A stretch of DNA of 64,000 bases from Escherichia coli (GTDB lineage: Bacteria; Pseudomonadota; Gammaproteobacteria; Enterobacterales; Enterobacteriaceae), in NCBI RefSeq assembly GCF_001677475.2, contig NZ_CP015229.1; one strand, written 5' to 3'. The translations under genes were made by a program, and so were the position numbers. Each line of letters begins with the position of its first letter. Positions within the stretch are counted from its first letter, which is position 1. A model generated the notes under the pieces. The model saw only the letters and a list, made by a program, of their open reading frames with translations. It was not told the origin of the DNA and did no database searches. Shown here piece after piece: positions 1-36,265 of the stretch.

Positions 1-1
1 T

Positions 2-298
2 AAACCGCTTTTCGCGCTGATAGATGCGATGAACGAAGCTCTCGACAAGCAACGCTGGCGACGTCTTCCGGCGCTGCATCAGCAGTTGATGCGTCAGTTT
101 CACGATTACGCGGCGGCTGAAACTGACGCGCAACAGCTTGGTGCGGTGAAATCGCAACTTCATGCCGCGTTTAGCGCATTAATTGCCCGCCGCGAGCAGC
201 GTGCCGACGTGCTGAAAGCGCGCATGGAGCTGCATCAGCAGCGCCAGGAAGGCGTGCTGGCCTACTCAATTGTTCATTTACTTTCGGAGAAGCCATGA
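2..298 (+). CDS. lafD: Lateral flagellar (Flag-2) protein, LafD-like; 5' end probably lies upstream of the window
   Basis: Frame is open back to base 2; stop overlaps the next gene's ATG (ATGA at 295-298); sits directly upstream of FliK/FliL/sigma-28/MotA/MotB homologues. Name assigned by position only. Confidence 0.45.
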   Translation, partial: KPLFALIDAMNEALDKQRWRRLPALHQQLMRQFHDYAAAETDAQQLGAVKSQLHAAFSALIARREQRADVLKARMELHQQRQEGVLAYSIVHLLSEKP

Positions 299-1356
299 AT
301 CCGGCATTGCTTGCCACGCTCGGAACGCTTGCGGAAACCGCGTCTCTGAAAACGGATATTTTACCGCCGGTGAGCGGTGAAAATGCGCCCGCGTTTACGC
401 TGCCGAAAATGGCAGTCGCGGCGGTGGCGGAGCGCGTTCATAGCGCGAAAACCAGTCAGCAACAAGCCACGCACCCGCAGGAGAACGATCCGGCAACGAT
501 GCAGGCCTTAATGGCGCTGTTACTGCCGCAACCTGCCGCGCCGCATCAGGACACGCCGCCGCCGCGAAACGTGGCGACATCGCCGGTTATCCAGCAACTG
601 ACGAAAGCGGTGGTGCAAAACGCGCCGCAACGCCCGACGCAACAGCAGGAACTCACGCCGTTGCCGCCGCAGTTGCAGGCGCTGGTGAGCCAGTTGCCGC
701 AGGTAAAACCGGATCAGCATGCCAGACTGGCGACTTACGCCAGTGAAGATTTACATGCCATTGCGCCGACGCAGCCGCGCGTCTCAACACAGCCAGCTCG
801 CCCGAAACCTGAACTAACCCGTGTGACCTCGCGCCCGCAGGTTGAGCGTAAAACGGAAAAAGTGCCGGACAGCGAACCGGTTATTGCGCGTGCGGTGTTG
901 CAGGATAAGACGCCGGAACTGGTCAGCGATCATCAGGAGATTGTCGCCAAACCAGCCACGCTTTCGATGGACGAACTGGGTGAAAAACTGACGACGCTTT
1001 TCAAAGATCAGATCCACTTTCAGCTCAACAAACAACAGCAGATCTCCACCATCCGTCTCGATCCACCGTCGCTTGGCAAGCTCGAGATCGCCGTACAACT
1101 CGACAACGGCAAACTGATGGTGCACATCGGCGCGAACCAAAGTGAAGTTTGCCGCGCGTTACAGCAGTTTAGCGACGATCTCCGCCAGCATCTGACGGCG
1201 CAAAATTTTATGGAGGTGAACGTACAGGTTTCCTCCGAAGGGCAGTCGCAGCAACAACAACAGTCGGGCCATCAGCAGGAAGAGGTGAGTGCCGCCTTAC
1301 AGCTTGATGATGCGCCTCAATTTCAACAGAACGAATCCGTTTTGATCAAAGTGTAA
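295..1356 (+). CDS. lafE: Flagellar hook-length control protein, FliK-like (Flag-2 LafE)
   Basis: 353 aa, Pro/Gln-rich central region typical of FliK, conserved C-terminal part; start overlaps upstream stop. Confidence 0.7.
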   Translation: MNPALLATLGTLAETASLKTDILPPVSGENAPAFTLPKMAVAAVAERVHSAKTSQQQATHPQENDPATMQALMALLLPQPAAPHQDTPPPRNVATSPVIQQLTKAVVQNAPQRPTQQQELTPLPPQLQALVSQLPQVKPDQHARLATYASEDLHAIAPTQPRVSTQPARPKPELTRVTSRPQVERKTEKVPDSEPVIARAVLQDKTPELVSDHQEIVAKPATLSMDELGEKLTTLFKDQIHFQLNKQQQISTIRLDPPSLGKLEIAVQLDNGKLMVHIGANQSEVCRALQQFSDDLRQHLTAQNFMEVNVQVSSEGQSQQQQQSGHQQEEVSAALQLDDAPQFQQNESVLIKV

Positions 1357-1363
1357 AGGCAAT

Positions 1364-1831
1364 ATGAAGAAAATCGTGGTGGCGGGCGTGGTCAGCGCCG
1401 TTCTGGCGTTGGTGGTGGGGGCCGGAGCTGGATGGAGTGTCTGGCATCATTATGCTGGAAAAGGAAAACCGACTGCCGCCGCGCAGACGGAAACGGTGGA
1501 AACCCTGGATGAAAGTAAAAGCGTGTTTGTGACGTTGCCGGAAACCATTGTCACGCTGCATGACAACAACGGCGCGGACCATTATTTGTCGGCGGAATTA
1601 GTGATGGTAGTCGCCAGTGACAAAGAAGCGGAAAAAATAAAACATCAGGAGCCGCTGTATCAAAGTATTGCAGTTGAATGCCTGACGGAAATGAAATTTG
1701 AAGATTTGCGTGGCATGAAAATATCTGCCATCCGCAAACTGATTTCTGACGCGTTAAAGAAAGATCTTCAGCGTCGCAAAATGAGCGCACCGTATAAGGA
1801 TTTGCTGGTGAAAAAAGTGGTCTTCCAGTAA
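1364..1831 (+). CDS. lafF: Flagellar basal-body-associated protein, FliL-like (LafF)
   Basis: 155 aa, N-terminal transmembrane helix (IVVAGVVSAVLALVVGAG), FliL-like size, position between fliK-like and sigma-28-like genes. Confidence 0.65.
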   Translation: MKKIVVAGVVSAVLALVVGAGAGWSVWHHYAGKGKPTAAAQTETVETLDESKSVFVTLPETIVTLHDNNGADHYLSAELVMVVASDKEAEKIKHQEPLYQSIAVECLTEMKFEDLRGMKISAIRKLISDALKKDLQRRKMSAPYKDLLVKKVVFQ

Positions 1832-1850
1832 TCACCAGGCGGATATAAAT

Positions 1851-2567
1851 ATGCTACAGGATGTATTCGAGTCAGAAGAATTTGCTGCCACACCGGTATT
1901 AACCCCGCAGCAGGAGAGCCACTACTTGCAGGCCTATTTACCGTTGGTGCGTAAAGTGGTGCGGCAACTTGCCCCGCAGTGTAATTGCATTATTGACCGT
2001 CAGGATATGGAACAAACGGCGTTAATGGGGCTGCTTAACGCCATTCGTCGCTATGGGCAGCCGGATGAAGGTTTTGCGGGCTATGCCGTGCACCGTATTC
2101 GCGGCGCGATCCTGGATGAGCTGCGCGCTCTCGACTGGCGACCGCGCCAGCTGCGACAGAAATATCATCAGATGAAAGACCTGATTCGCGAAACGCGTAA
2201 AAAACTGGGTCACGAACCGGAGTGGTCAGAACTGGCCGTGGAAGGGATCTCGCATGAAGATTATCTCGAATATCAGCAACTGGAAGGGGCGGAAACACTC
2301 GCCAGTCTGGACGAACTGCTGAACGGTGAAGGGGCAGGCATTCCGCTTGTTGGCAGGGAACTGGAAGATCAGTTTGTCACCCAGCAAATGTTGCAACAGG
2401 CGCTTTCACAATTAAGCGAAAAAGAGCAACTGATCCTCTCCATGTATTACCAGCATGAGATGAATCTCAAAGATATTGCGCTGGTATTAGGGCTAACCGA
2501 GGCCCGAATTTGTCAACTGAATAAACAGATCGCGCAGAAAATTCGTGATTTTGTCTATCCGAATTAA
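1851..2567 (+). CDS. lafS: Sigma-28 (FliA-family) sigma factor for the lateral flagellar system (LafS)
   Basis: 238 aa; sigma-70 region 2-like segment and region 4 HTH (LSEKEQLILSMYYQHEMNLKDIALVLGLTEARICQL). Confidence 0.85.
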   Translation: MLQDVFESEEFAATPVLTPQQESHYLQAYLPLVRKVVRQLAPQCNCIIDRQDMEQTALMGLLNAIRRYGQPDEGFAGYAVHRIRGAILDELRALDWRPRQLRQKYHQMKDLIRETRKKLGHEPEWSELAVEGISHEDYLEYQQLEGAETLASLDELLNGEGAGIPLVGRELEDQFVTQQMLQQALSQLSEKEQLILSMYYQHEMNLKDIALVLGLTEARICQLNKQIAQKIRDFVYPN

Positions 2568-2579
2568 AGTGAAGAAATT

Positions 2580-3443
2580 ATGCAAAAAATATTAGGTTTA
2601 CTGGTGGTGCTCGGCTGCGTATTTGGCGGTTATTTTGAAGCGGGCGGGCAATTAGTGGCTATCTGGCAACCGGCGGAGATGATCATTATTTTGGGTGCCG
2701 GTTTCGGGGCGATGATTATTGGTAACCCGAAACATGTGCTGAAAGAGATTGCCCATCAAATTAAAGGCGTGATCAGTAAAAAACAGCTTGGGCCGGAATT
2801 TCAGCGCCAGCTATTAATGTGCCTGTATGAGTTGCTCGAAATGGTGCAAAACGGCGGCCTGCGCATGCTGGATCAGCATATCGAGCAGCCGGAGGAGAGC
2901 ACTATTTTCCAGAAATACCCGCTGGTGTTAACCCAGAAACGGCTGGTGACCTTTATTGCCGATAACTTTCGCCTGATGGCGATGGGTAAGATTGACGCTC
3001 ATGAACTGGAAGGCATTCTCGATCAGGAACTGGACACCGCTGAAGAGTCGCTGTTAACGCCGTCGCGCTCGCTGCAACGTACCGCCGAAGCGATGCCGGG
3101 ATTTGGTATTTGTGCAGCAGTGTTGGGGATCATCATCACCATGCAGTCGATTGATGGATCTATCGCCCTGATTGGCCTGAAAGTGGCGGCAGCGCTGGTA
3201 GGGACGTTTTTAGGCGTCTTTATCTGCTACTGCCTGATGGACCCGCTCGCCAACGCCATGGAACAACAGGCGCGGGCGGAGCATTCATTGTTGGAGTGCG
3301 TGCGTACCGTGCTGGTGGCGCAGGCGGGCGGTAAACCGACGCTGCTGGCGGTGGACGCCGGGCGTAAGCTGCTGCATCTGGCGTCCAAACCGACCTTCGC
3401 CAACCTCGACGCGTGGGTGAATGCGATGCTGGAGCAAGAATAA
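2580..3443 (+). CDS. lafT: Flagellar stator protein, MotA-like (LafT)
   Basis: 287 aa, multiple transmembrane helices, MotA/TolQ/ExbB-type C-terminal membrane segment; immediately followed by a MotB-like gene. Confidence 0.8.
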   Translation: MQKILGLLVVLGCVFGGYFEAGGQLVAIWQPAEMIIILGAGFGAMIIGNPKHVLKEIAHQIKGVISKKQLGPEFQRQLLMCLYELLEMVQNGGLRMLDQHIEQPEESTIFQKYPLVLTQKRLVTFIADNFRLMAMGKIDAHELEGILDQELDTAEESLLTPSRSLQRTAEAMPGFGICAAVLGIIITMQSIDGSIALIGLKVAAALVGTFLGVFICYCLMDPLANAMEQQARAEHSLLECVRTVLVAQAGGKPTLLAVDAGRKLLHLASKPTFANLDAWVNAMLEQE

Positions 3444-3445
3444 GC

Positions 3446-4369
3446 ATGAGAAAGACGGGCAACCGCCGCGAGCGTGGGGCAAAAACCACCATCGTCCGGC
3501 GGCAGATCAAAAAGAATCATGCCGGGCATCACGGCGGGGCGTGGAAGGTGGCGTTTGCCGACTTTACTTTGGCAATGATGGCGCTGTTTATGACCCTGTG
3601 GATTGTCAACAGCGTCAGTAAATCCGAGCGTGAAAGTATTATCGCCGCGCTGCACGGGCAGTCGATTTTTAACGGTGGCGGGCTGTCGCCGTTAAATAAA
3701 ATCAGCCCGCCTCATCCGCCGAAACCTGCCACCGTGGCGGTGCCGGAAGAGACGGAGAAGAAAGCGCGCGACGTCAACGAGAAAACGGCGCTACTGAAGA
3801 AGAAATCTGCCACCGAGCTTGGAGAGCTGGCAACCAGTATCAACACCATTGCCCGTGATGCGCATATGGAAGCGAATCTGGAGATGGAGATTGTCCCGCA
3901 GGGATTACGCGTGCTGATTAAAGACGACCAGAACCGCAATATGTTTGAACGCGGCAGCGCGAAGATTATGCCGTTCTTTAAAACGCTGCTGGTGGAGTTA
4001 GCGCCAGTGTTCGACTCGCTCGATAACAAAATTATTATTACCGGGCATACTGATGCGATGGCCTACAAAAGCAATATCTACAACAACTGGAACCTTTCGG
4101 GCGATCGCGTGCTTTCGGCCCGTCGGGTGCTGGAAGAGGCCGGAATGCCGGAAGATAAAGTGATGCAGGTGAGCGCGATGGCGGACCAGATGTTGCTGGA
4201 TGCCAAAAATCCGCAAAGCGCGGGCAACCGGCGCATTGAGATTATGGTGCTGACTAAAAGCGCGTCCGATACGCTGTATCAATACTTTGGTCAGCATGGG
4301 GATAAAGTGGTGCAGCCGCTGGTGCAAAAGCTGGATAAGCAGCAGGCGCTTTCGCAGCGAACGCGTTAA
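3446..4369 (+). CDS. lafU: Flagellar stator protein, MotB-like with OmpA-type peptidoglycan-binding domain (LafU)
   Basis: Single N-terminal TM (WKVAFADFTLAMMALFMTLWIV) and C-terminal OmpA-like domain (IITGHTDAMAY...NRRIEIMV). Start chosen at the ATG 3446, 2 nt after the lafT stop; the longest ORF begins at 3413. Confidence 0.8.
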   Translation: MRKTGNRRERGAKTTIVRRQIKKNHAGHHGGAWKVAFADFTLAMMALFMTLWIVNSVSKSERESIIAALHGQSIFNGGGLSPLNKISPPHPPKPATVAVPEETEKKARDVNEKTALLKKKSATELGELATSINTIARDAHMEANLEMEIVPQGLRVLIKDDQNRNMFERGSAKIMPFFKTLLVELAPVFDSLDNKIIITGHTDAMAYKSNIYNNWNLSGDRVLSARRVLEEAGMPEDKVMQVSAMADQMLLDAKNPQSAGNRRIEIMVLTKSASDTLYQYFGQHGDKVVQPLVQKLDKQQALSQRTR

Positions 4370-4405
4370 ATGCTGAATCTTTACGCATTTCTCAAACCCT
4401 GAAAT

Positions 4406-4425
4406 CACTGTATACTTTACCAGTG
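4406..4425 (+). promoter_or_regulatory. LexA (SOS) box upstream of dinB
   Basis: CACTGTATACTTTACCAGTG fits CTG-N10-CAG, about 15 bp upstream of the dinB ATG. Confidence 0.85.
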
Positions 4426-4439
4426 TTGAGAGGTGAGCA

Positions 4440-5495
4440 ATGCGTAAAATCATTCATGTGGATATGGACTGCTTTTTCGCCGCGGTGGAGATGCGCGACA
4501 ATCCCGCCCTGCGCGATATCCCTATTGCTATTGGCGGCAGCCGCGAACGTCGGGGGGTGATCAGCACCGCCAATTATCCTGCGCGTAAATTTGGCGTACG
4601 TAGCGCTATGCCGACAGGGATGGCGCTCAAATTATGCCCACATCTCACCTTGCTTCCGGGGCGCTTTGACGCCTACAAAGAAGCCTCAAATCATATCCGT
4701 GAAATCTTCTCGCGCTACACCTCGCGCATTGAACCGTTGTCACTGGATGAAGCCTATCTCGATGTCACCGATAGCGTCCATTGCCACGGTTCTGCGACCC
4801 TCATCGCCCAGGAAATCCGCCAGACGATCTTCAACGAGCTGCAACTGACGGCGTCTGCGGGCGTGGCACCAGTAAAGTTTCTCGCCAAAATCGCCTCCGA
4901 CATGAATAAACCCAACGGCCAGTTTGTGATTACGCCGGCAGAAGTTCCGGCATTTTTACAAACCTTGCCGCTGGCAAAAATTCCCGGCGTCGGCAAAGTC
5001 TCGGCGGCAAAACTGGAAGCGATGGGGCTACGGACCTGCGGTGATGTGCAAAAGTGTGATCTGGTGATTCTGCTTAAACGCTTTGGCAAATTTGGCCGCA
5101 TTTTGTGGGAGCGTAGTCAGGGGATTGACGAGCGCGACGTTAACAGTGAACGGTTGCGAAAATCCGTCGGCGTGGAACGCACGATGGCGGAAGATATTCA
5201 TCACTGGTCTGAATGTGAAGCGATTATCGAGCGGCTGTATCCTGAACTTGAACGCCGTCTGGCAAAGGTAAAACCTGATTTACTGATTGCCCGCCAGGGG
5301 GTGAAATTAAAGTTCGATGATTTTCAGCAAACCACTCAGGAGCATGTCTGGCCGCGGCTGAATAAAGCTGACTTAATCGCCACCGCGCGTAAAACCTGGG
5401 ATGAACGCCGTGGCGGGCGCGGTGTGCGTCTGGTGGGGCTGCATGTGACGTTGCTTGACCCGCATATGGAAAGACAACTGGTGCTGGGATTATGA
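4440..5495 (+). CDS. dinB: DNA polymerase IV (Y-family translesion polymerase)
   Basis: 351 aa; N-terminus [33 protein letters not shown] is the E. coli DinB sequence as recalled. Confidence 0.97.
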
Positions 5496-5546
5496 TGTAT
5501 ACTATTATGTCTATTCTGGTGTGCATTATTATGAGGGGATCACTGT

Positions 5547-5840
5547 ATGCATCGAATTCTCGCTGAAAAATCGGTCAATATCACTGAGTTACGTAAAAAC
5601 CCAGCTAAATACTTTATTGATCAACCGGTTGCGGTTCTTTCTAATAATCGCCCCGCAGGATATCTCTTAAGTGCCAGCGCATTTGAAGCGTTAATGGACA
5701 TGCTTGCTGAACAAGAGGAGAAAAAACTGGTGAAGGCGCGCTTCCGTCCGAGTGCCGCAAGATTAGAGGAAATTACACGCCGCGCTGAACAATATCTTAA
5801 TGATATGACGGATGATGATTTCAATGACTTTAAGGAATAA
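5547..5840 (+). CDS. yafN: Type II antitoxin YafN
   Basis: 97 aa, Phd/YefM-like antitoxin, immediately upstream of yafO in the dinB operon. Confidence 0.88.
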   Translation: MHRILAEKSVNITELRKNPAKYFIDQPVAVLSNNRPAGYLLSASAFEALMDMLAEQEEKKLVKARFRPSAARLEEITRRAEQYLNDMTDDDFNDFKE

Positions 5841-5842
5841 GG

Positions 5843-6241
5843 ATGCGGGTATTCAAAACAAAACTTATTCGCCTGCAACTTACAGCAGAGGAACTTGATG
5901 CGTTAACGGCGGATTTTATTTCCTATAAGCGTGACGGTGTTTTGCCAGATATATTTGGTCGCGATGCACTCTACGACGACTCGTTTACCTGGCCATTAAT
6001 CAAATTTGAGCGAGTTGCTCATATTCATCTGGCAAATGTGAATAATCCATTTCCGTCACAGTTGCGCCAATTCAGCAGAACGAATGACGAAGCGCATTTG
6101 GTATATTGTCAGGGTGCGTTTGATGAGCAAGCATGGTTGCTCATTGCCATTCTGAAACCTGAACCTCATAAACTGGCTCGAGATAACAACCAAATGCATA
6201 AAATTGGGAAAATGGCAGAAGCGTTTCGCATGCGTTTTTGA
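5843..6241 (+). CDS. yafO: Type II toxin YafO (ribosome-dependent mRNA interferase)
   Basis: 132 aa, 2 nt after the yafN stop; conserved dinB-yafN-yafO-yafP order. Confidence 0.88.
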   Translation: MRVFKTKLIRLQLTAEELDALTADFISYKRDGVLPDIFGRDALYDDSFTWPLIKFERVAHIHLANVNNPFPSQLRQFSRTNDEAHLVYCQGAFDEQAWLLIAILKPEPHKLARDNNQMHKIGKMAEAFRMRF

Positions 6242-6250
6242 ATTTATATT

Positions 6251-6703
6251 ATGAATAACATACAAATAAGAAACTATCAGCCTGGCGATTTTCAGCAACT
6301 ATGCGCTATTTTCCTTAGAGCGGTTACGATGACCGCCAGTCAGCATTATTCACCACAACAAATTGCCGCCTGGGCGCAGATTGACGAATCTCGCTGGAAG
6401 GATAAACTCGCGAAATCACAAGTGCGGGTTGCCATCATTAATGCACAACCGGTTGGTTTTATTTCCCGCATTGAACATTATATCGATATGTTATTTGTTG
6501 ACCCTGAATACACCCGCCGTGGGGTTGCCAGCGCTTTGTTAAAACCTTTGATTAAGTCTGAATCCGAACTTACAGTGGACGCCAGCATAACCGCAAAACC
6601 ATTTTTTGAACGTTATGGTTTTCAGACAGTTAAGCAGCAGCGCGTTGAATGCCGGGGAGCGAGGTTTACTAATTTTTATATGCGTTATAAACAGCAACAT
6701 TAA
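6251..6703 (+). CDS. yafP: GNAT-family N-acetyltransferase YafP
   Basis: 150 aa, GNAT-like motif region (RRGVASALL); last gene of the dinB operon. Confidence 0.88.
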   Translation: MNNIQIRNYQPGDFQQLCAIFLRAVTMTASQHYSPQQIAAWAQIDESRWKDKLAKSQVRVAIINAQPVGFISRIEHYIDMLFVDPEYTRRGVASALLKPLIKSESELTVDASITAKPFFERYGFQTVKQQRVECRGARFTNFYMRYKQQH

Positions 6704-6872
6704 ATCCAGCTTGCAATGAAAATAACGCCCGCCTAATATGTGCGCGTTTTGTTATTCCACAAACTGCAAGGAGGTAAATCATGACAAATCCTTTATCAAT
6801 GACTCTTTGCAGACCTTTCCAGGATTAATTCTTTTTTTTCTTGCCCTGGATCCGTCTGCCATTTCCTGATTT

Positions 6873-7008
6873 TTATATTTATATACTCTAAATAATTCGA
6901 GTTGTAGGAAGGCGACAAGCGAGTGAATCCCTAGGAGCTTACGAAAGTAAGTGACTGGGGTGAACGAACGCAGTCGTAGTACATGCAACTTGAAGTATGA
7001 CGAGTATA
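6873..7008. repeat. ERIC/IRU element (enterobacterial repetitive intergenic consensus), copy 1
   Basis: Contains GTGAATCCCTAGGAGCTTAC and AAGTAAGTGACTGGGGTGAACG, matching the ERIC primer sites; imperfect palindrome; second copy at 25753-25880. Confidence 0.85.
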
Positions 7009-7009
7009 A

Positions 7010-8161
7010 ATGGAATGGTACATGGGCAAATATATTCGTCCCTTATCCGATGCGGTATTTACCATCGCATCTGATGACCTGTGGATCGAGAGTTTAGCGA
7101 TCCAACAATTACACACCACGGCAAATTTACCCAACATGCATCGCGTAGTGGGGATGCCAGATTTACACCCCGGACGTGGCTACCCGATTGGCGCAGCGTT
7201 CTTCTCCGTAGGTCGTTTTTACCCGGCGCTGGTCGGCAATGATATCGGCTGCGGCATGGCGCTATGGCAAACAGATATTCTCGTGCGCAAGTACAACGCC
7301 GATAAGTTTGAAAAGCGATTATCAGCTTTGGATGACGTTGCTGAAGAAAGCTGGCTGGAGGAAAACCTGCCGTCAGCGTTTGCACTACATCCGTGGCGCA
7401 GCTCGCTTGGCTCCATCGGCGGTGGCAATCACTTCGCTGAACTGCAACAGATTGATCAAATTATCGACGCGGAACTGTTTGCACTGGCAGGTCTGGATGC
7501 GCAGCATCTGCAACTGCTGGTTCATAGCGGATCGCGTGGTCTGGGGCAGTCTGTTTTACAAAAACATATTTCCACATTCTCGCATCATGGTTTGCCGGAA
7601 GGCAGTGATGACGCGATGCGCTATATCGTGGAACATGACGATGCGCTGGCGTTTGCTCGCATTAATCGCCAGATGATCGCCCTGCGCATAATGCAACAGG
7701 TGAAGGCTACGGGAAGTCCGGTTCTGGATGTGGCGCATAACTTCATTACCGCGAGTAAAATTGGCGATCAACAAGGCTGGTTACACCGTAAAGGGGCTGC
7801 GCCAGATGACAGTGGCCTGGTGGTTATCCCCGGTTCACGCGGTGATTACTCATGGCTTGTACAGCCTGTCAGTAGCGAAGAAATATTGCATTCGCTGGCG
7901 CATGGGGCAGGACGTAAATGGGGGCGCACCGAGTGCAAAGGACGGCTGGCAGCGAAATACACGGCGACGCAACTTACGCGTACTGAACTTGGCAGCAGGG
8001 TAATTTGTCGCGATAAACAGCTCATCTTTGAAGAGGCGCCGCAGGCCTATAAATCGGCAGAAAGCGTGGTGCAATGTCTGGTGCAGGCCGGTTTAATTAT
8101 TCCTGTCGCGCGGCTGCGCCCGGTGCTGACACTCAAAAACAGTGGAGGGAAAAAAGGATGA
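7010..8161 (+). CDS. RtcB-family RNA ligase paralogue (RtcB2-like), full length
   Basis: 383 aa; GGGNHF motif and HNF motif region typical of RtcB; stop overlaps the prfH start (ATGA at 8158-8161). The K-12 counterpart (ykfJ) is a pseudogene. Confidence 0.8.
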
Positions 8162-8772
8162 TCTTGCTACAACTCTCCTCAGCCCAGGGACCGGAAGAAT
8201 GCTGCCTCGCAGTCAAAAAGGCGTTGGACAGGCTGATTAAAGAAGCATCCCAACAGCGTGTTGCGGTAACGGTGCTGGAGACAGAAACGGGCCGCTACTC
8301 TGATTCGCTGCGTTCAGCGCTGGTTTCTCTGGATGGCGACAACGCATGGGCATTAAGCGAAAGCTGGTGCGGCACTATTCAGTGGATTTGTCCGAGTCCG
8401 TATCGGCCTCATCATGGGCGCAAAAACTGGTTTCTGGGCATTGGGCGTTTTACCGCTGATGAGCAGGAACAATCGGATGCAATCCGTTATGAGACGCTGC
8501 GTTCGTCGGGGCCGGGCGGTCAACATGTCAATAAAACCGACTCGGCGGTACGCGCCACGCATCTGGCTACCGGAATTAGTGTGAAGGTTCAGTCAGAGCG
8601 CAGCCAGCATGCTAACAAACGGCTGGCGCGATTGCTGATCGCCTGGAAGCTGGAACAACAGCAACAGGAAAATAGCGCGGTGCTGAAATCGCAGCGGCGA
8701 ATGTTCCATCACCAGATTGAACGTGGCAACCCGCGACGGACATTTACAGGGATGGCTTTTATCGAAGGATAA
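8158..8772 (+). CDS. prfH: Peptide chain release factor homologue PrfH
   Basis: 204 aa from [15 protein letters not shown]; GGQ motif present ([17 protein letters not shown]); the longer ORF from 8074 overlaps rtcB and is taken as an extension artefact. Confidence 0.88.
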
Positions 8773-8784
8773 TGAAGGATGAAA

Positions 8785-8817
8785 CTGCCGGAAGGCGATT
8801 AAACGCCATCCGGCAGC
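8785..8817. terminator. Bidirectional hairpin between convergent prfH and pepD
   Basis: Inverted repeat CTGCCGGAAGGCG...CGCCATCCGGCAG between two convergent stops. Confidence 0.6.
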
Positions 8818-8828
8818 AAATCAAATAA

Positions 8829-10286
8829 TTACTTCGCCGGAATTTCTTTCAGCAGTTCAGTCAGCAGTGTCCAGTAATGACCTACGCTTTCGATGTGAAC
8901 TTGCTCATCCGGAGAGTGTGGACCGGTGATAGTTGGCCCGATAGACACCATGTCCATTTCCGGATACGGTTTTTTGAACAGACCACATTCCAGGCCCGCG
9001 TGGATAATCTGGATGTTCGGCGTCTTGTTGAACAGGCGCTGATAGGTTTCACGTACCAGATGCATCACCGGAGAATTAGCGTCCGGCTGCCAGCCAGGAT
9101 ATGCGCCTTTCGCTTCGGTTTTCGCGCCAGCCAATTTACCCAGCGAATCCAGCATGCTCACCACGTAGTCTTTACCGCTGTCGATCAGAGAACGGATCAG
9201 ACAGTGAATTTCTACGTTATTGTCAGTCATGGTCACCACACCGACGTTCAGGGAGGTTTCGACCACACCTTTTGCCACGTCGGAGTTGCGGATCACACCG
9301 TTCGGGGTGGCGTTCAGTAGACGAATAAAGGTATCGCGAGATTTCGCAATCAGGGCAGCTTTATCGTTCGCTACAGAGTCCAGCAACAAGGCCAGATTTT
9401 TCTCTTTCTCTGCCAGCTCGTTTTTCAGGATATCCTGATAGGTATTCACCAGAGATTTCAGGGCGTCGACTTTATCAGCTGCGACAGCAATGGTCGCAAA
9501 GGCTTCACGCGGGATGGCGTTACGCAGTGTGCCGCCGTTGAAATCAATAAGACGCAGGTCCAGTTCTTCTGCATGACCCGCCAGGAAGCGCACCAGCAGT
9601 TTGTTGGCATTACCCAGGCCAACGTGGATTTCACCGCCGGAGTGACCGCCTTTCAGACCTTTTAAGGTTAACTTGAAGGTTTCAAAACCAGCTGGAACCG
9701 CTTCACGATCTAAATGCAGGTTGGAGGTGAAGTCGATACCCCCCGCACAACCCATGTAGATTTCACCTTCTTCTTCGGAGTCGGTGTTAATCAAAATATC
9801 AGCCTGCAACCAGTTGCTCTGTAAGCCGAACGCACCGTCCATACCTGCTTCTTCGGTCATGGTCAGCAGCACTTCCAGCGGGCCGTGAACCACGTTTTCG
9901 TCAGCCAGAACCGCCAGTGCAGAGGCCATACCAATGCCGTTATCCGCACCCAGCGTGGTACCGCGCGCTTTAACCCATTCGCCATCAATATAAGGCTGGA
10001 TAGGATCTTTAGTGAAGTCATGCACGGTGTCGTTATTTTTCTGCGGCACCATATCGAGGTGGGCCTGCAAGACGACCGGTTTACGATTTTCCATACCTGC
10101 GGTAGCAGGTTTACGAATCAGGATATTACCTACCTGATCGCGTTCGACATGGAAACCTTTCTCTTTTGCCCAACCAACAATGTATTCAGCGAGTTGCTCT
10201 TCATGATAGGACGGGTGAGGAATAGAACAGATTTTGGCAAAAATATCCCACAGCGGCTGTGGAGATAATTGAGACAGTTCAGACAC
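8829..10286 (-). CDS. pepD: Cytosol non-specific dipeptidase (aminoacyl-histidine dipeptidase), M20 family
   Basis: 485 aa; N-terminus MSELSQLSPQPLWDIFAKICSIPHPS as recalled for E. coli PepD. Confidence 0.95.
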   Translation of the reverse strand: MSELSQLSPQPLWDIFAKICSIPHPSYHEEQLAEYIVGWAKEKGFHVERDQVGNILIRKPATAGMENRKPVVLQAHLDMVPQKNNDTVHDFTKDPIQPYIDGEWVKARGTTLGADNGIGMASALAVLADENVVHGPLEVLLTMTEEAGMDGAFGLQSNWLQADILINTDSEEEGEIYMGCAGGIDFTSNLHLDREAVPAGFETFKLTLKGLKGGHSGGEIHVGLGNANKLLVRFLAGHAEELDLRLIDFNGGTLRNAIPREAFATIAVAADKVDALKSLVNTYQDILKNELAEKEKNLALLLDSVANDKAALIAKSRDTFIRLLNATPNGVIRNSDVAKGVVETSLNVGVVTMTDNNVEIHCLIRSLIDSGKDYVVSMLDSLGKLAGAKTEAKGAYPGWQPDANSPVMHLVRETYQRLFNKTPNIQIIHAGLECGLFKKPYPEMDMVSIGPTITGPHSPDEQVHIESVGHYWTLLTELLKEIPAK

Positions 10287-10546
10287 GTTAAGTCTCCTTG
10301 TCGATCACCCGCAAAACAGTATTGCAGGTCACAGGGTTAGCAGAAAATGTTGTCAACACAAGACAGGCTTGCGAGATATGTTTGAGAATACCACTTTATC
10401 CCGCGTCAGGGAGAGGCAGTGCGTAAAAAGACGCGGACTCATGTGAAATACTGGTTTTTAGTGCGCCAGATCTCTATAATCTCGCGCAACCTATTTTCCC
10501 CTCGAACACTTTTTAAGCCGTAGATAAACAGGCTGGGACACTTCAC

Positions 10547-11005
10547 ATGAGCGAAAAATACATCGTCACCTGGGACATGTTGCAGATCCATGCACGTAAA
10601 CTCGCAAGCCGACTGATGCCTTCTGAACAATGGAAAGGCATTATTGCCGTAAGCCGTGGCGGTCTGGTACCGGGTGCGTTACTGGCGCGTGAACTGGGTA
10701 TTCGTCATGTCGATACCGTTTGTATTTCCAGCTACGATCACGACAACCAGCGCGAGCTTAAAGTGCTGAAACGCGCAGAAGGCGATGGCGAAGGCTTCAT
10801 CGTTATTGATGACTTGGTGGATACCGGTGGTACTGCGGTTGCTATTCGAGAAATGTATCCAAAAGCGCACTTTGTCACCATCTTCGCAAAACCGGCCGGT
10901 CGCCCGCTGGTTGATGATTATGTTGTTGATATCCCGCAAGATACCTGGATCGAACAGCCGTGGGATATGGGCGTCGTATTCGTCCCGCCAATCTCTGGTC
11001 GCTAA
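10547..11005 (+). CDS. gpt: Xanthine-guanine phosphoribosyltransferase
   Basis: 152 aa; [23 protein letters not shown]; PRPP-binding motif [11 protein letters not shown]. Confidence 0.95.
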
Positions 11006-11012
11006 TCTTTTC

Positions 11013-11045
11013 AACGCCTGGCACTGCCGGGCGTTGTTCTTTTTA
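11013..11045 (+). terminator. Rho-independent terminator downstream of gpt
   Basis: Hairpin AACGCCTGGCACTGCCGGGCGTT followed by a T-run. Confidence 0.75.
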
Positions 11046-11096
11046 ACTTCAGGCAGGTTACAATAGTTTCCAGTAAGTATTCTGGAGGCTGCATCC

Positions 11097-16664: not shown

Positions 16665-16740
16665 GCCGATATAGCTCAGTTGGTAGAGCAGCGCATTCGT
16701 AATGCGAAGGTCGTAGGTTCGACTCCTATTATCGGCACCA
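16665..16740 (+). tRNA. thrW: tRNA-Thr (anticodon CGU)
   Basis: 76 nt GCCGATATAGCTCAGTTGGTAGAGCAGCGCATTCGTAATGCGAAGGTCGTAGGTTCGACTCCTATTATCGGCACCA; cloverleaf with CGT anticodon and encoded CCA end. Confidence 0.95.
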
Positions 16741-16754
16741 TTTAAATCAATAAG

Positions 16755-17021
16755 TTACACATCATTAGTACCTTCCTTATTTCTTGACTGGGACAAATTT
16801 GGGACCGATGGGTTCAGAATCGAGTCTATTTGCCGTGCGTGTTCGGTAAGGTGATTAGGTGCGAGGTGAGCATATCGACGAACCATTTCAAGAGTTTCCC
16901 ATCCTCCCATTTCTGTAAGTGCAAGAAGAGAAACACTGGACTGAACCAGCCTGCTTGCCTTTGCTATCAAAGTACCTTGAGGACCAGATGATTTCTGGCG
17001 ATATTTACAGCGCGTCCGCAA
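16755..17021 (-). pseudogene. Tyrosine-recombinase (phage/P4-type integrase) C-terminal remnant
   Basis: Only about 50 C-terminal residues are integrase-like ([34 protein letters not shown], with the catalytic Tyr region); no N-terminal or core domains upstream; adjacent to the tRNA attachment site. Confidence 0.65.
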
Positions 17022-17107
17022 TGAGTTTTTCTCCGTGCCGCCAGTGACGTTCCCCGCTTTTTCAGTGCGGCGATAATATCAGCGGGATGCCAGTCCTGTT
17101 GTGTCAT
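16966..17107 (-). pseudogene. Ner/Nlp(SfsB)-like HTH regulator, 5' fragment fused to the integrase remnant
   Basis: Begins [24 protein letters not shown], matching the Ner/Nlp N-terminus as recalled, then diverges and stops after about 46 codons; a Ner-like segment (LIAKA) continues in the integrase-remnant frame. Confidence 0.45.
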
Positions 17108-17574
17108 ACAACCACCTCGCTGATAAATTTTACGCCGTCGGCGGTGCGCAGCCAGCGCGGGGCTTTGAGTCCTTCCATGAAATACCAGACCAGTTCACAC
17201 AACAGCCCGGTCAGGGTTTGTTCCGTTTTTGGTTCCGCCGGGCGTTCCAGCAGAAGCTGGAGTAGTGCGAGGCAGTATTCGCACAAGGAATCTGGTTCGG
17301 AAATAAAGTGCTCTGGTGTGGCGGGAAGGGTATCAACGGTCAGGCTTTCAATCAGATGCGGCGGGATGGGGTCGTGCAGCGTGGGGTGCAATAGCGCAAG
17401 AGCCGCGTGAAGCCGTCCGCAGAGCGCTAGCCGTAGCGCGGGATCGTCGGTTTCGATCAGGGTTTCGGCGAAGCGGGCGCAGTAATCGGCAAGGACAGTA
17501 AAATCCGTGGTGGCATTGAAGGGGGCGGACAGCAGATCGAGTAAATCGCAGTCAGGGGTGAGGGTTGTAGCCAT
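17104..17574 (-). CDS. Hypothetical protein, 156 aa, acidic and Leu-rich, no recognised domain
   Basis: ORF with an AGGAGA Shine-Dalgarno about 7 nt upstream of the ATG at 17574 (longest ORF starts at 17628); stop overlaps the ATG of the Ner-like fragment (ATGA); GC-rich relative to the neighbouring RT gene. Confidence 0.5.
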   Translation of the reverse strand: MATTLTPDCDLLDLLSAPFNATTDFTVLADYCARFAETLIETDDPALRLALCGRLHAALALLHPTLHDPIPPHLIESLTVDTLPATPEHFISEPDSLCEYCLALLQLLLERPAEPKTEQTLTGLLCELVWYFMEGLKAPRWLRTADGVKFISEVVV

Positions 17575-17917
17575 AGGGCGTCTCCTGTAACGGTTTATTA
17601 TGTCCGCCACTAGAGAGGCTAATCTCATGGGGGGCGGAACCGGACGGGGTTAGCCTTACCGGCGTTACAGGAAACCGGCGCGTCTTGCGACGCCCCCGCC
17701 CGGCCCGCCATTGAGGTGTAGCCGAACGCACGACACAAAAAAGACGCTGGTGCGTCAAGTGTCGCCTGTAACGGTTTTCAGGAGGCTAATCCCGACGCCT
17801 GATTTTGCAGGCGCGGGAGAAAGATACTGCGATTGGTCATGAGTGGCAAGGGCTACATCCTGTTTACCGACATCTCACGCAAAAATACCCTGATTATTAA
17901 TAGCGAAAATCAGTTTC

Positions 17918-21127: not shown

Positions 21128-21422
21128 GCGTTATCGTCCTTAGATTAAAGTCTGTACAGAATTAGCCAGCCGTTTCATGCCCGAAGGAGGTGCTCTTGAC
21201 ACCAGTAATCCATCAGTGAGGCTGGCAATAATTTTGATTTGTATCCATGTTACACGCTCCCCGCAACCAGTCCGAGCATATATTTGTCACATTTTTCCCG
21301 AAAGTGATTAAGTTTGAATTTTTTGTTTAATGTCGATTTTTAGTCGACAAAATGAGGAATAAGTAAATTATTTCTTGCTGTGGCGTATCCCTGAACCTAC
21401 ACTGGTTTAAATATTTGTACTA

Positions 21423-25752: not shown

Positions 25753-25880
25753 ATATACTCTAAATAATTCAAGTTGCAGGAAGGCGACAAGTGAGTGAAT
25801 CCCCAGGAGCTTACAAAAGTAAGTGACTGGGGTGAATGAACGCAGTCGCAGCACATGCAACTTGAAGTATGACGAGTATA
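25753..25880. repeat. ERIC/IRU element, copy 2
   Basis: Over 90% identical by eye to the copy at 6873-7008 (GTGAATCCCCAGGAGCTTAC ... AAGTAAGTGACTGGGGTGAATG). Confidence 0.85.
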
Positions 25881-36019: not shown

Positions 36020-36033
36020 TGTAATGAATGATA

Positions 36034-36060
36034 AAAATGGCGCAAATACAGCGCCATTTT
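36034..36060 (+). terminator. Hairpin terminator downstream of yagU
   Basis: AAATGGCGCAAATACAGCGCCATTT stem-loop followed by a T-run. Confidence 0.65.
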
Positions 36061-36265
36061 TATAGGTTAAAAACATTGCTTTTTATATTCTGATGCAGCT
36101 AGTCAGTGAGCATATCGCGCCACTTCAGGATGATGTAGATCCGAAGAACGCTACAGAAGAGAGGCATTGTTGCTGGCAAATAGAAGAAGTTTCGGGTTTT
36201 GTTGCCCCTAAAAACGAAGCCCCGCTATTACAGTAGGCGGGGCAGTGCAATTAATTATTGCATAT

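What the first reader, a model, noticed from the sequence alone, without database searches (positions are those of the whole stretch)
7010..8772. Intact rtcB-like ligase translationally coupled to prfH (ribosome rescue/repair module)
A full-length 383-aa RtcB-family ORF (GGGNHF motif) ends in an ATGA overlap with prfH, which retains a GGQ motif. In K-12 the rtcB part is decayed (ykfJ), leaving prfH orphaned; here the pair looks functional. As I recall, RtcB2-PrfH pairs have been reported to rescue and religate ribosomes cut by ribotoxins. The module lies just downstream of the yafO toxin gene and an ERIC element.
Basis: partly seen in the sequence, partly recalled or inferred. Interest (0 to 1): 0.55.

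Follow-up and report, generated by a model that had tools for sequence, protein, structure and literature searches.

The report
Intact RtcB2–PrfH ribosome-repair operon
This is an intact copy of a known two-gene bacterial system that frees and re-ligates ribosomes cut by toxins such as colicin E3; about half of E. coli genomes carry it, and it sits behind a small stall-sensing leader gene already studied in Pseudomonas.

Summary
Window 7022-8161 (or 7010-8161 for the longest ORF) encodes a full-length RtcB2 ligase. Its stop codon overlaps the start of a 204-aa PrfH (8158-8772) in the sequence ATGA.

Both proteins pass NCBI's curated family cut-offs. Every catalytic and ribosome-contact residue reported for the characterised E. 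coli proteins is present, and dN/dS is about 0.1. The exact proteins are already in NCBI, annotated as such.

K-12 has a deletion of about 1.03 kb (window 7228-8259). It removes most of rtcB2 and also the first ~34 codons of prfH. About half of complete E. coli genomes keep the full-length pair.

Upstream (6711-7021) lie a conserved promoter, a 15-codon leader ORF and a four-segment RNA switch. I found this leader in every rtcB2-prfH locus I could test across Gamma- and Betaproteobacteria, with compensatory base changes in its helices. It is the same family as the P. aeruginosa leader peptide PA5471.1, and ArmZ there is an RtcB2 orthologue. The ribosome-repair papers I read do not cite that work. 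Here a 127-bp ERIC element is inserted inside the leader.

The parts
6711..6739 (+). Putative sigma-70 promoter of the operon: -35 TTGCAA (6711-6716), 17-nt spacer, -10 TAATAT (6734-6739). The predicted transcript start is near 6746.
   Evidence: Read from the sequence. The same TTGCAA-N17-TAnnAT arrangement sits at a fixed distance upstream of the leader in most other genera. The consensus scan missed it because it scores 8 of 12, below the tool's threshold of 9. This part is inferred and has not been mapped experimentally.
6752..6919 (+). Match to the covariance model of the rtcB2 leader (PA5471.1-type leader RNA). The true 3' end of the leader is at the rtcB2 start (7021); the ERIC insertion displaces the last helix arm.
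   Evidence: Model R1 scores 84.6 bits, E = 6e-26. There is one strong hit per rtcB2 locus, always abutting the rtcB2 start, and none elsewhere in 616 kb. The P. aeruginosa armZ leader also matches, at 48.7 bits.
6768..6774 (+). Shine-Dalgarno sequence AAGGAGG of the leader ORF, 6 nt before its ATG. It is also the 5' arm of helix P1 (6764-6773), which pairs with 6803-6812.
   Evidence: The core of P1 is invariant in most lineages and changes in a compensatory way in Chromobacterium, Ps. fuscovaginae and Betaproteobacteria.
6781..6828 (+). Leader ORF of 15 codons, MTNPLSMTLCRPFQD, stop TAA. It is a homologue of P. aeruginosa PA5471.1 (MIQFSTLCRLRLA).
   Evidence: A 12-20-codon ORF with a strong SD was found upstream of rtcB2 in 77 of 77 testable loci and in 10 genera sampled separately. 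Its N-terminus is variable, but the nucleotides CTTTGC(A/G)G are nearly invariant. The P. aeruginosa sequence was read. It matches the published description of 13 residues with Q3 and F4 (PMC13041342).
6809..6859 (+). Hairpin P2/P3. P2 pairs GCAGAC (6809-6814) with GTCTGC (6854-6859). P3 pairs CCAGG (6819-6823) with CCTGG (6845-6849). The 5' arms lie in the last six codons of the leader ORF, and its stop codon begins 2 nt after the P3 arm.
   Evidence: RNAalifold predicted P2 on a plain MAFFT alignment without being given my model. P2 is 96-98% paired, with 3-4 of its 6 pairs changed on both sides. All 5 P3 pairs show changes on both sides.
6859..6866 (+). Anti-start segment CCATTTCC, the 5' arm of P4. 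It pairs with GGAATGG (7012-7018) just upstream of the rtcB2 ATG. In this window the pairing can extend into GTCTGCC / GGTACAT(G).
   Evidence: Predicted in the fold of the whole window leader, with the ERIC hairpin nested inside its loop (z = -4.1). The helix is about 70-76% paired across genera, with compensatory changes such as CCAATTCA/TGAATTGG.
6882..7008 (.). ERIC element (enterobacterial repetitive intergenic consensus), 127 bp, inserted in the loop between the anti-start segment and the rtcB2 start.
   Evidence: It has terminal inverted repeats at 6882-6904 and 6986-7008, and the ERIC core matches exactly at 6945-6963. It gives a partial match to Rfam RF02818. The same 127 bp recur at other places in E. 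coli genomes (H30). The insertion is absent from E. coli locus L013 and from Salmonella, and is 64 bp long in Klebsiella.
7022..8161 (+). rtcB2, encoding the 379-aa RNA 3'-phosphate/5'-OH ligase that re-ligates 16S rRNA. The longest ORF starts at 7010 and adds MEWY.
   Evidence: The exact protein is ANO87451.1.
8158..8161 (+). ATGA overlap of the rtcB2 stop codon and the prfH start codon (translational coupling).
   Evidence: The overlap is conserved in 76 of 85 loci.
8158..8772 (+). prfH, encoding the 204-aa release-factor homologue that hydrolyses peptidyl-tRNA on ribosomes cut in the decoding centre. GGQ is at residues 120-122.
   Evidence: The exact protein is ANO87452.1.
8786..8817 (.). 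GC-rich inverted repeat between the convergent prfH and pepD genes. It is a possible bidirectional terminator.
   Evidence: Read from the sequence only. The terminator scan did not list it. This part is inferred.

Best explanation
Window 6711-8772 is a complete, apparently functional rtcB2-prfH operon of E. coli.

Mechanism taken from published work on near-identical proteins. A ribotoxin such as colicin E3 or CdiA-CT cuts 16S rRNA between A1493 and G1494, and the ribosome stalls. PrfH enters the A site and recognises the new 3'-phosphate end of A1493. It then releases the peptide through its GGQ motif, so the ribosome can be taken apart. RtcB2 re-ligates the 16S rRNA in the freed 30S subunit.

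Shown here. Both genes are intact, all residues needed for these steps are present, and both genes are under purifying selection. Their overlap (ATGA) is conserved.

Also shown here. The operon has its own promoter-like element and a conserved leader. The leader is a 15-codon ORF followed by four RNA segments that can pair 1:2, 2:3 or 3:4. It belongs to the same family as the PA5471.1 leader of the P. aeruginosa armZ-PA5470 operon, and ArmZ is an RtcB2 orthologue.

Inferred, by homology with PA5471.1 and from the fold. When the leader ORF is translated to its end, segment 3 is free to pair with segment 4, which covers the rtcB2 start, and expression is low. When a ribosome stalls early on the leader, segments 2 and 3 pair instead, the rtcB2 start is freed, and the repair genes are induced.

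Whether control in E. coli acts on transcription, on translation or on both is not established.
For: Identity of the two proteins:
- NCBIfam equivalog scores exceed the curated cut-offs for both, and Pfam agrees.
- PrfH is about 97% identical to the PrfH chain of 7SA4.
- The exact sequences are in NCBI as E. coli 'RNA ligase RtcB family protein' and 'peptide chain release factor H', on 53-63 contigs.

Integrity:
- The catalytic residues D47, H49, D74, C77, N136, H137, H168, H239 and H294 are conserved.
- PrfH contact residues A9-P12, R52, S53, R83, H85, H86, R88, K89, N90, R181, H184 and R189, and Q122, are all present.
- dN/dS against strain PEC408 is 0.12 for rtcB2 and 0.10 for prfH.

Function of the family: PMC9304027, PMC9223846 and PMC13166195.

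Leader:
- A short upstream ORF (uORF) is present in 77 of 77 loci.
- RNAalifold recovers helix P2 unaided.
- In the model-based alignment 86% of cells are paired, 18 of 22 pairs change on both sides, and 0 of 500 shuffles reach the observed values. Versions with the partner slid by 1-3 columns give only 23-50% paired.
- The model gives one hit per locus, always at the rtcB2 start.
- The P. aeruginosa armZ leader matches the model, and its uORF is MIQFSTLCRLRLA.
- ArmZ has all RtcB motifs at the same positions, and its gene overlaps prfH by 4 nt.
- The published attenuation model for PA5471.1 has the same logic (PMC13041342).
- K-12 ykfJ was reported to be inducible by 4-azaleucine (PMC3516279).
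- In a constrained-folding test, a ribosome placed on the uORF start raised the predicted accessibility of the rtcB2 start from 0.32 to 0.41, in 43 of 60 leaders. A ribosome placed at the uORF stop did not.
Against: - No experiment exists on this allele. Its RtcB2 differs at about 25-32 of 379 residues from the other full-length E. coli alleles compared, and I did not obtain the RtcB2 sequence of ATCC 25922.
- The 127-bp ERIC insertion in the leader could alter regulation. However, K-12 carries the same insertion and its ykfJ was reported to be inducible.
- The accessibility effect is modest, and the sequences are phylogenetically related, so its p-values overstate the support.
- The model-based alignment is fitted to the structure it tests.
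- P1 is almost invariant, so it is supported by covariation only in a few distant lineages.
- No canonical intrinsic terminator follows the hairpin in E. coli: the T-run starts about 10 nt after the stem.
Confidence: 0.88

Rival explanations
1. The pair is a divergent allele that looks intact but has lost activity, that is, an early pseudogene.
For: The best nucleotide identity to 5,426 complete E. coli genomes is only 92.7% over the two genes. The central part of rtcB2 is 84-87% identical to its closest hit. The locus is deleted in about half of E. coli genomes, so it is dispensable.
Against: Synonymous changes dominate: dS is 0.30 for the whole of rtcB2 and 0.52 in the centre, with dN/dS of 0.12-0.14. 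No stop codons or frameshifts are present. All catalytic and contact residues are kept. The amino-acid replacements are mostly conservative and avoid the motifs. Other E. coli alleles differ from each other almost as much, so high diversity is a property of the locus and not of this copy.
Confidence: 0.05
2. RtcB2 here acts mainly as a regulator, like ArmZ (which binds the repressor MexZ in P. aeruginosa), or as a general tRNA/mRNA repair ligase like RtcB1, rather than as a 16S rRNA repair enzyme.
For: ArmZ is an RtcB2 orthologue with all its motifs and has a documented protein-binding role (PMC12057347). RtcB1 and RtcB2 share the same catalytic residues.
Against: The published assays show that E. 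coli RtcB2 repairs damaged 30S subunits but not cleaved tRNAs, and that RtcB1 does the opposite. The operon did not protect against colicins E5 or D. The conserved coupling to PrfH points to a substrate on the ribosome. I know of no MexZ/MexXY counterpart in E. coli; this is my own knowledge and was not tested here.
Confidence: 0.04
3. The module is functionally part of the neighbouring dinB-yafN-yafO-yafP SOS / toxin-antitoxin operon. It would be read through from that operon and would repair damage linked to the YafO ribosome-dependent mRNA interferase.
For: The genes are on the same strand and adjacent, and the same order recurs in several Enterobacteriaceae. YafO acts on the ribosome.
Against: The module carries its own conserved promoter-like element and leader. 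It keeps these in Providencia, Limnobaculum, Pseudomonas and Betaproteobacteria, where the neighbours are unrelated. Salmonella, Citrobacter, Kosakonia and Cronobacter have dinB-rtcB2-prfH-pepD without yafNO. YafO cleaves mRNA, not 16S rRNA at A1493; this comes from the K-12 annotation and my own knowledge.
Confidence: 0.03

Closest known systems
E. coli ATCC 25922 RtcB2-PrfH (PDB 7SA4; Tian et al. 2022 PMC9304027; Maviza et al. 2022 PMC9223846 and 2026 PMC13166195)
   Same: Same species, same chromosomal site (between yafP and pepD) and same two-gene overlapping operon. PrfH is about 97% identical and has the same length (204 aa). The catalytic His294 and Gln122 are in the same positions, and all reported rRNA-contact residues are identical.
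   Different: This is a different allele. PrfH has 7 substitutions, none at a contact residue. RtcB2 is about 92-93% identical to the other full-length E. coli alleles sampled. The window carries an ERIC element in the leader that other intact-operon E. coli copies, such as L013, lack.
E. coli K-12 ykfJ / prfH pseudogenes
   Same: Same locus and flanks (97.8-98.0% identity), and the same leader and ERIC element.
   Different: K-12 lacks window 7228-8259. This removes RtcB2 residues 70-379, which include every metal/GMP ligand except D47 and H49, and PrfH residues 1 to about 34. The same ~1 kb deletion was noted by Baranov et al. 2006.
P. aeruginosa PA5471.1 leader - armZ (PA5471) - PA5470 operon (Morita et al. 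2006 and 2009, as described in PMC3516279, PMC12057347 and PMC13041342)
   Same: ArmZ is a 379-aa PRK09588/RtcB2-type protein with every RtcB motif at the same position. Its gene overlaps a 204-aa prfH by 4 nt. Its 13-codon leader, MIQFSTLCRLRLA, and the downstream RNA match the covariance model built from the other genera. The published logic is that complete leader translation turns expression off and early stalling turns it on. The segment topology found here fits that logic.
   Different: In P. aeruginosa the product has been recruited as an anti-repressor of MexZ, and the leader carries an insertion of about 146 nt in the P3 loop. Control there is described as transcription attenuation. 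In E. coli the 3:4 helix covers the rtcB2 start codon and no canonical terminator is visible, so translational control is at least as likely. The inducers tested there were antibiotics, not ribotoxins.
PrfH-CT subfamily (Capnocytophaga gingivalis PrfH; PDB 9MOR/9MQ4; PMC12829566)
   Same: It has the same GGQ and rRNA-recognition domains. The window PrfH aligns with it over residues 3-201 (E = 8e-40).
   Different: The window protein has 204 aa and lacks the basic C-terminal tail that lets PrfH-CT also rescue intact non-stop ribosomes. It therefore belongs to the short, damage-specific E. coli type.
E. coli RtcB1 (rtcBA operon, sigma-54/RtcR-controlled)
   Same: Same fold family (PF01139) and identical catalytic residues.
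   Different: It is only 32% identical and has extra insertions. It is paired with rtcA, not prfH. It was reported to repair tRNAs and not the A1493 cut.

Membership tests
RtcB2 (release-factor-H-coupled RtcB; NCBIfam PRK09588 / TIGR03073) | Sequence scores above the curated family cut-offs | tested here: met
   629.2 bits against a cut-off of 407, and 612.5 bits against 271.8. Pfam PF01139 matches in two stretches.
RtcB2 (release-factor-H-coupled RtcB; NCBIfam PRK09588 / TIGR03073) | RtcB metal-binding and guanylylation residues are present (P. horikoshii D65, H67, D95, C98, N202, H203, H234, H329, H404; EcRtcB2 H294) | tested here: met
   D47, H49, D74, C77, N136, H137, H168, H239 and H294 are present. 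They are invariant in the alignment with RtcB1 and other RtcB2 proteins. The P. horikoshii numbering was partly checked from alignment offsets; the rest is from my own knowledge.
RtcB2 (release-factor-H-coupled RtcB; NCBIfam PRK09588 / TIGR03073) | Encoded immediately upstream of prfH, same strand, with stop and start overlapping | tested here: met
   ATGA at 8158-8161. The same arrangement occurs in 76 of 85 loci.
RtcB2 (release-factor-H-coupled RtcB; NCBIfam PRK09588 / TIGR03073) | Ligates 16S rRNA cleaved at A1493/G1494 in 30S subunits, and does not ligate cleaved tRNAs | not testable with these tools
   This is a biochemical property, shown for the ATCC 25922 protein.
PrfH (TIGR03072; IPR017509), short EcPrfH type | Sequence scores above the curated cut-off, with near-identity to the structurally characterised protein | tested here: met
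   325.5 bits against a cut-off of 166.65. The match to 7SA4 chain 8 has E = 8e-133 over residues 1-204.
PrfH (TIGR03072; IPR017509), short EcPrfH type | GGQ peptidyl-hydrolase motif, and absence of RF domain 1 | tested here: met
   GGQ is at residues 120-122. The 204 residues align only to RF2 residues of about 116-308.
PrfH (TIGR03072; IPR017509), short EcPrfH type | Residues of the A1493-3'-phosphate pocket and of the h18/S12, C1914 and C1054 contacts | tested here: met
   All 15 listed contact residues are identical to the published ones.
PrfH (TIGR03072; IPR017509), short EcPrfH type | No basic C-terminal tail (which distinguishes it from PrfH-CT) | tested here: met
   The protein has 204 aa and ends at the same residue as EcPrfH. 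The PrfH-CT length class is 225-250 aa.
PrfH (TIGR03072; IPR017509), short EcPrfH type | Releases peptide only from ribosomes damaged in the decoding centre | not testable with these tools
   This is a biochemical property, shown for EcPrfH.
PA5471.1-type leader (leader peptide plus RNA switch of armZ/rtcB2 operons) | Short ORF (about 13 codons in P. aeruginosa) with its own SD, upstream of the rtcB2/armZ coding sequence on the same mRNA | tested here: met
   The ORF has 15 codons (6781-6828), with SD AAGGAGG 6 nt upstream. The same family of peptides ends in ...LCR... in P. aeruginosa and in 77 of 77 other loci.
PA5471.1-type leader (leader peptide plus RNA switch of armZ/rtcB2 operons) | Downstream RNA segments capable of alternative pairings | tested here: met
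   P1, P2/P3 and P4 are predicted in the window and in other genera. Covariation supports them. The covariance model matches both the window (84.6 bits) and the P. aeruginosa leader (48.7 bits).
PA5471.1-type leader (leader peptide plus RNA switch of armZ/rtcB2 operons) | Expression of the downstream genes is induced by ribosome stalling on the leader | not testable with these tools
   This has been shown only in P. aeruginosa. For K-12 ykfJ there is a second-hand report of induction by 4-azaleucine. The in-silico accessibility test is weakly consistent.
ERIC (enterobacterial repetitive intergenic consensus) element | About 127 bp, imperfect palindrome with a conserved core, intergenic, multi-copy | tested here: met
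   The element is 127 bp with 23-nt terminal inverted repeats. The core matches exactly at 6945-6963, and a second copy lies at 25795-25838. Other copies exist in E. coli genomes. The consensus used for the search was recalled from memory.

The most novel reading that the evidence does not exclude
The PA5471.1-type leader may be a universal built-in damage sensor of rtcB2-prfH operons across Gamma- and Betaproteobacteria. In E. coli it would make the ribosome-repair genes inducible specifically by ribosomes cut in the decoding centre.

Such ribosomes are reported to pile up at start codons. One parked on the leader's start would hold segment 1 and let segments 2:3 pair, which uncovers the rtcB2 start. 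PrfH and RtcB2 would then clear and repair that same ribosome and so shut the switch off again, closing a feedback loop.

This would also join two literatures that do not cite each other: ArmZ/MexXY antibiotic induction and RtcB2-PrfH ribotoxin defence. The ERIC insertion in this strain would be a natural variant of the switch.
Probability: 0.35. Interest if true: 0.6.

Novelty: already known. Interest (0 to 1): 0.3.

Why it matters
The gene pair itself is ordinary. It is an annotated, experimentally characterised E. coli system, present at full length in about half of complete genomes.

Its practical meaning is that this strain, unlike K-12, should tolerate colicin E3-type and CdiA-CT(ECL)-type ribotoxins.

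The useful by-product concerns regulation. The ribosome-repair papers I read say nothing about how the operon is controlled. The sequence shows a conserved leader that is the same thing as the stall-sensing PA5471.1 leader of P. aeruginosa armZ. That gives a concrete, testable answer to how cells decide when to make the repair enzymes. It also suggests that ArmZ-mediated MexXY induction evolved on top of an older ribosome-damage response.

Tried and rejected
1. For about 40 calls I treated the leader ORF and RNA structure as possibly undescribed. It is absent from Rfam. It is not mentioned in the four RtcB2-PrfH papers and is not annotated in any record seen. I rejected this reading after finding that P. 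aeruginosa ArmZ is a PRK09588/RtcB2 protein with the known leader PA5471.1. I confirmed it by fetching that locus.

2. I asked whether the low identity to other E. coli genomes marks a foreign import peculiar to this strain. This was rejected as special, because other E. coli alleles differ from one another by 5-19% in the same segments. The window backbone is about 97% identical to its best hits anyway.

3. The consensus promoter/terminator scan found no promoter and only weak terminator-like sites inside the coding sequences, so it was uninformative. The promoter proposed here rests on cross-genus conservation.

4. A classical intrinsic terminator after P2/P3 is not supported in E. coli, because the T-run is separated from the stem by about 10 nt.

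5. I considered whether the segment after the hairpin, or the leader as a whole, mimics the 3' end of 16S rRNA or helix 44. I found no convincing similarity and dropped the idea.

6. RNAalifold on the MAFFT alignment recovered only P2. P3 and P4 needed a structure-aware alignment, which is biased towards the model.

7. A full-text search for the leader peptide sequence found nothing, and the 'ykfJ' matches listed were mostly unrelated papers, none read. Morita et al. 2009 could not be fetched, so its content is cited second-hand.

8. I did not obtain the ATCC 25922 RtcB2 sequence for a direct comparison.
Full report
**1. The observation**

The ORF 7010-8161 is open for 383 codons and contains GGGNHF. 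A second ORF starts at the ATG at 8158, which overlaps the TGA at 8159-8161, and runs to 8772 (204 codons, GGQ at 120-122). The coordinates, the ATGA overlap and the motifs are therefore all correct.

The conserved start of the ligase is the ATG at 7022, giving 379 aa:
- The NCBIfam model aligns from residue 5 of the long ORF.
- RefSeq annotates that start in the closest complete genome.
- Homologues from Salmonella to Pseudomonas begin MG(N/K).
- The published catalytic His294 falls on a histidine only in that numbering.

**2. What the two proteins are**

The ligase scores 629 bits on NCBIfam PRK09588 (cut-off 407) and 612 bits on TIGR03073 'release_rtcB' (cut-off 272). It matches Pfam RtcB.

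The second protein scores 325 bits on TIGR03072 'release_prfH' (cut-off 167). It is about 97% identical over its whole length to the PrfH chain of the 70S complex 7SA4, with seven substitutions.

Both exact sequences are already in NCBI (ANO87451.1, ANO87452.1), named as RtcB-family ligase and release factor H, on 53-63 E. coli contigs.

RtcB residues. The P. horikoshii RtcB ligands map to D47, H49, D74, C77, N136, H137, H168, H239 and H294 of the 379-aa protein. All are invariant in alignments with E. coli RtcB1 (32% identity) and with RtcB2 from other genera.

PrfH residues. Tian et al. describe contacts with the cleaved A1493 3'-phosphate (A9-P12, R83, H86, R88, R189), helix 18 / protein S12 (K89, N90), C1914 (R52, S53, R181, H184) and C1054 (H85), and the catalytic Q122. 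Every one of these residues is present.

The protein has no C-terminal tail, so it is the short, damage-specific type and not the PrfH-CT type.

**3. Is this copy functional?**

The backbone of the window is about 96-97% identical to the best of 5,426 complete E. coli genomes. The two genes reach only 92.7%, and parts of rtcB2 drop to 84-87%.

The differences are mostly synonymous. dN/dS is 0.12 for rtcB2 and 0.10 for prfH, with dS up to 0.52 in the centre of rtcB2. The amino-acid changes are conservative and avoid the motifs.

Other E. coli alleles differ from one another nearly as much in the same segments. High allelic diversity is therefore a property of the locus and not a sign of decay in this copy. 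I conclude that the pair is very probably active. This is an inference; nothing here tests activity.

**4. The K-12 lesion**

K-12 aligns to window 4300-7227 and 8260-11070 at 97.8-98.0% identity. About 1,032 bp is replaced by a few bases. The junction follows RtcB2 codon 69 and resumes near PrfH codon 35.

K-12 therefore loses all RtcB2 ligands except D47 and H49. It also loses the N-terminal part of PrfH, which includes part of the A1493 pocket. prfH is truncated, not merely orphaned. This agrees with Baranov et al. and Tian et al..

Of 5,426 complete genomes, 2,674 have a match covering at least 80% of the two genes. In the sampled rows, lower-coverage matches sit at 41-52% coverage of the longer 2.1-kb query, as expected for the deletion.

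**5. How it works**

The mechanism is established for the ATCC 25922 proteins:
- PrfH releases peptide only from ribosomes cut between A1493 and G1494.
- RtcB2 re-ligates the damaged 30S subunit but not cleaved tRNAs.
- Both activities are needed in vivo at natural expression levels.
- Over-expressed RtcB2 alone can suffice.

Overlap of the two genes is conserved. Of 85 loci, 33 have ATGA and 43 have TRATG.

**6. Surroundings: the module is autonomous**

In Salmonella, Citrobacter, Kosakonia and Cronobacter the order is dinB-rtcB2-prfH-pepD, without yafNO. In Providencia, Limnobaculum and Pseudomonas the neighbours are unrelated.

Upstream of rtcB2, every genus shows the same sequence of elements:
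- a TTGCAA-N17-TAnnAT promoter-like element;
- a strong SD;
- a 12-20-codon ORF;
- a hairpin;
- a U-rich stretch;
- a conserved GGAWTGG just before the rtcB2 ATG.

In the window these are at 6711-6739, 6768-6774, 6781-6828, 6809-6859 and 7012-7018.

**7. The leader**

A scan of one genome per species returned 80 rtcB2 loci from Gamma- and Betaproteobacteria. A short ORF with an SD was present in 77 of the 77 loci that could be tested. Its N-terminal codons vary, but the nucleotides CTTTGC(A/G)G and the position of the stop codon (2 nt after the P3 arm) are conserved. This points to constraint on the RNA and not on the peptide.

RNAalifold, run on a plain MAFFT alignment, predicted helix P2 with three compensatory pairs.

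Counting my four helices on that alignment gave 82% of cells paired, against 25-50% when the partners were slid by 1-3 columns. P2 was 96% paired.

A covariance model found exactly one strong hit per locus, always ending at the rtcB2 start, and nothing else in 616 kb. On the model-based alignment, 86% of cells pair and 18 of 22 pairs show changes on both sides. No shuffle out of 500 reached any of the observed measures. That alignment leans towards the model.

P1, which pairs the leader's SD with CTTTGCAG, is invariant in most lineages. It changes in a compensatory way in Chromobacterium, Ps. fuscovaginae, Hydrogenophaga and Rhodoferax.

The segments can pair 1:2 (P1), 2:3 (P2) or 3:4 (P4, extended). 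The 3:4 helix covers the rtcB2 start region.

**8. The leader is not new**

The MexXY literature states the following:
- P. aeruginosa PA5471 (ArmZ) belongs to UPF0027/PRK09588.
- Its E. coli homologue is ykfJ.
- It is co-transcribed with PA5470, a release-factor homologue.
- Its expression is controlled by a 13-residue leader peptide, PA5471.1, that senses ribosome stalling.

I fetched a P. aeruginosa locus. ArmZ has every RtcB motif at the same position as the window protein, and its gene overlaps a 204-aa prfH by 4 nt. The leader ORF reads MIQFSTLCRLRLA, with Q3 and F4 as published, and the covariance model matches at 48.7 bits, with a 146-nt insertion in the P3 loop.

The published model is that full translation of the leader lets segments 3:4 form and blocks expression, while early stalling lets 2:3 form. 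This is the same topology I had inferred.

A constrained-folding test agrees weakly. Placing a ribosome on the leader's start raised the predicted accessibility of the rtcB2 start in 43 of 60 leaders (mean 0.32 to 0.41). Placing it at the stop codon did not.

The RtcB2-PrfH papers do not mention ArmZ, PA5471 or any leader. The 2025 MexXY review calls ArmZ only 'RtcB-like'.

What is added here is threefold: the family-wide conservation, the covariation support, and the bridge between the two literatures. Maviza et al. (2026) report that E3-cleaved ribosomes accumulate at start codons. That makes a damage-specific version of the sensor plausible, but it is untested.

**9. The ERIC element**

The 127 bp at 6882-7008 have 23-nt terminal inverted repeats, the ERIC core and a weak match to Rfam RF02818. 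The same 127 bp recur elsewhere in E. coli genomes.

The element sits in the loop of the 3:4 helix. The predicted fold keeps that helix, with ERIC as a nested hairpin.

The insertion is polymorphic:
- It is present in K-12 and PEC408.
- It is absent in E. coli L013 and in Salmonella.
- It is a 64-bp remnant in Klebsiella.

The 12 nt between ERIC and the true start (ATGGAATGGTAC) are conserved because they form the 3' arm of P4. This explains why the spurious 'MEWY' extension appears conserved.

**10. Verdict**

The system is already known, and even this exact allele is annotated. Interest is low to moderate. It is raised slightly because the conserved PA5471.1-type leader gives a testable account of how the repair operon is switched on.

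Noticed in passing
window 6882-7008; compare L013 2357-2509, L005, L007: The ERIC insertion inside the rtcB2 leader is polymorphic. It is full-length here and in K-12 and PEC408, absent in another E. coli (L013) and in Salmonella, and a 64-bp remnant at the same site in Klebsiella. Many intact-operon E. coli genomes cover only about 94% of the query, which fits absence of the 127 bp.
   Followed up: partly
window 7300-8300: The centre of rtcB2 and the 5' end of prfH show unusually deep allelic divergence within E. coli: dS up to 0.52, with 5-19% nucleotide difference even between two other E. coli alleles. dN/dS is nevertheless low. The hypervariable stretch lies inside the segment deleted in K-12-type strains.
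   Followed up: partly
L094 2215-4251 (P. aeruginosa): ArmZ, the MexZ anti-repressor, keeps every RtcB catalytic motif, and its gene overlaps prfH by 4 nt. It is therefore an RtcB2 orthologue that may still be a ribosome-repair ligase. The RtcB2-PrfH papers read here and the MexXY papers read here do not connect the two.
   Followed up: partly
window 16665-23133: A tRNA-Thr(CGU) gene (16665-16740) is followed by an island. It carries C4 antisense RNA and isrK (17627-17814, minus strand), a 1069-aa defence reverse transcriptase of the UG5-nitrilase (DRT) type (17918-21127, minus strand) and an AbiEi/AbiEii pair (21423-23133).
   Followed up: partly
window 1-4300: Genes of the lateral flagellar (Flag-2) cluster (lafU, motA, a FliA-type sigma factor, FliK) lie upstream of dinB. 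K-12 keeps only a lafU pseudogene here.
   Followed up: no
window 25795-25838: A second ERIC copy (core with 3 mismatches to the recalled consensus).
   Followed up: no
window 49166-53419 and 36025-36223: A 1417-aa intimin-like inverse autotransporter adhesin, whose scores are below the curated cut-offs of the named subfamilies. There is also a match to Rfam IS009 RNA at 36025-36223.
   Followed up: no
L012 (Intestinirhabdus alba) 1191-3312: This locus appears to be decaying. prfH is split into 144-aa and 61-aa ORFs, and the leader carries an insertion of about 210 nt in the P3 loop.
   Followed up: no
L002 2243-2695 (E. coli PEC408): yafP is annotated as a pseudogene (internal stop) in the complete genome closest to the window at this locus. 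The window's yafP is intact.
   Followed up: no
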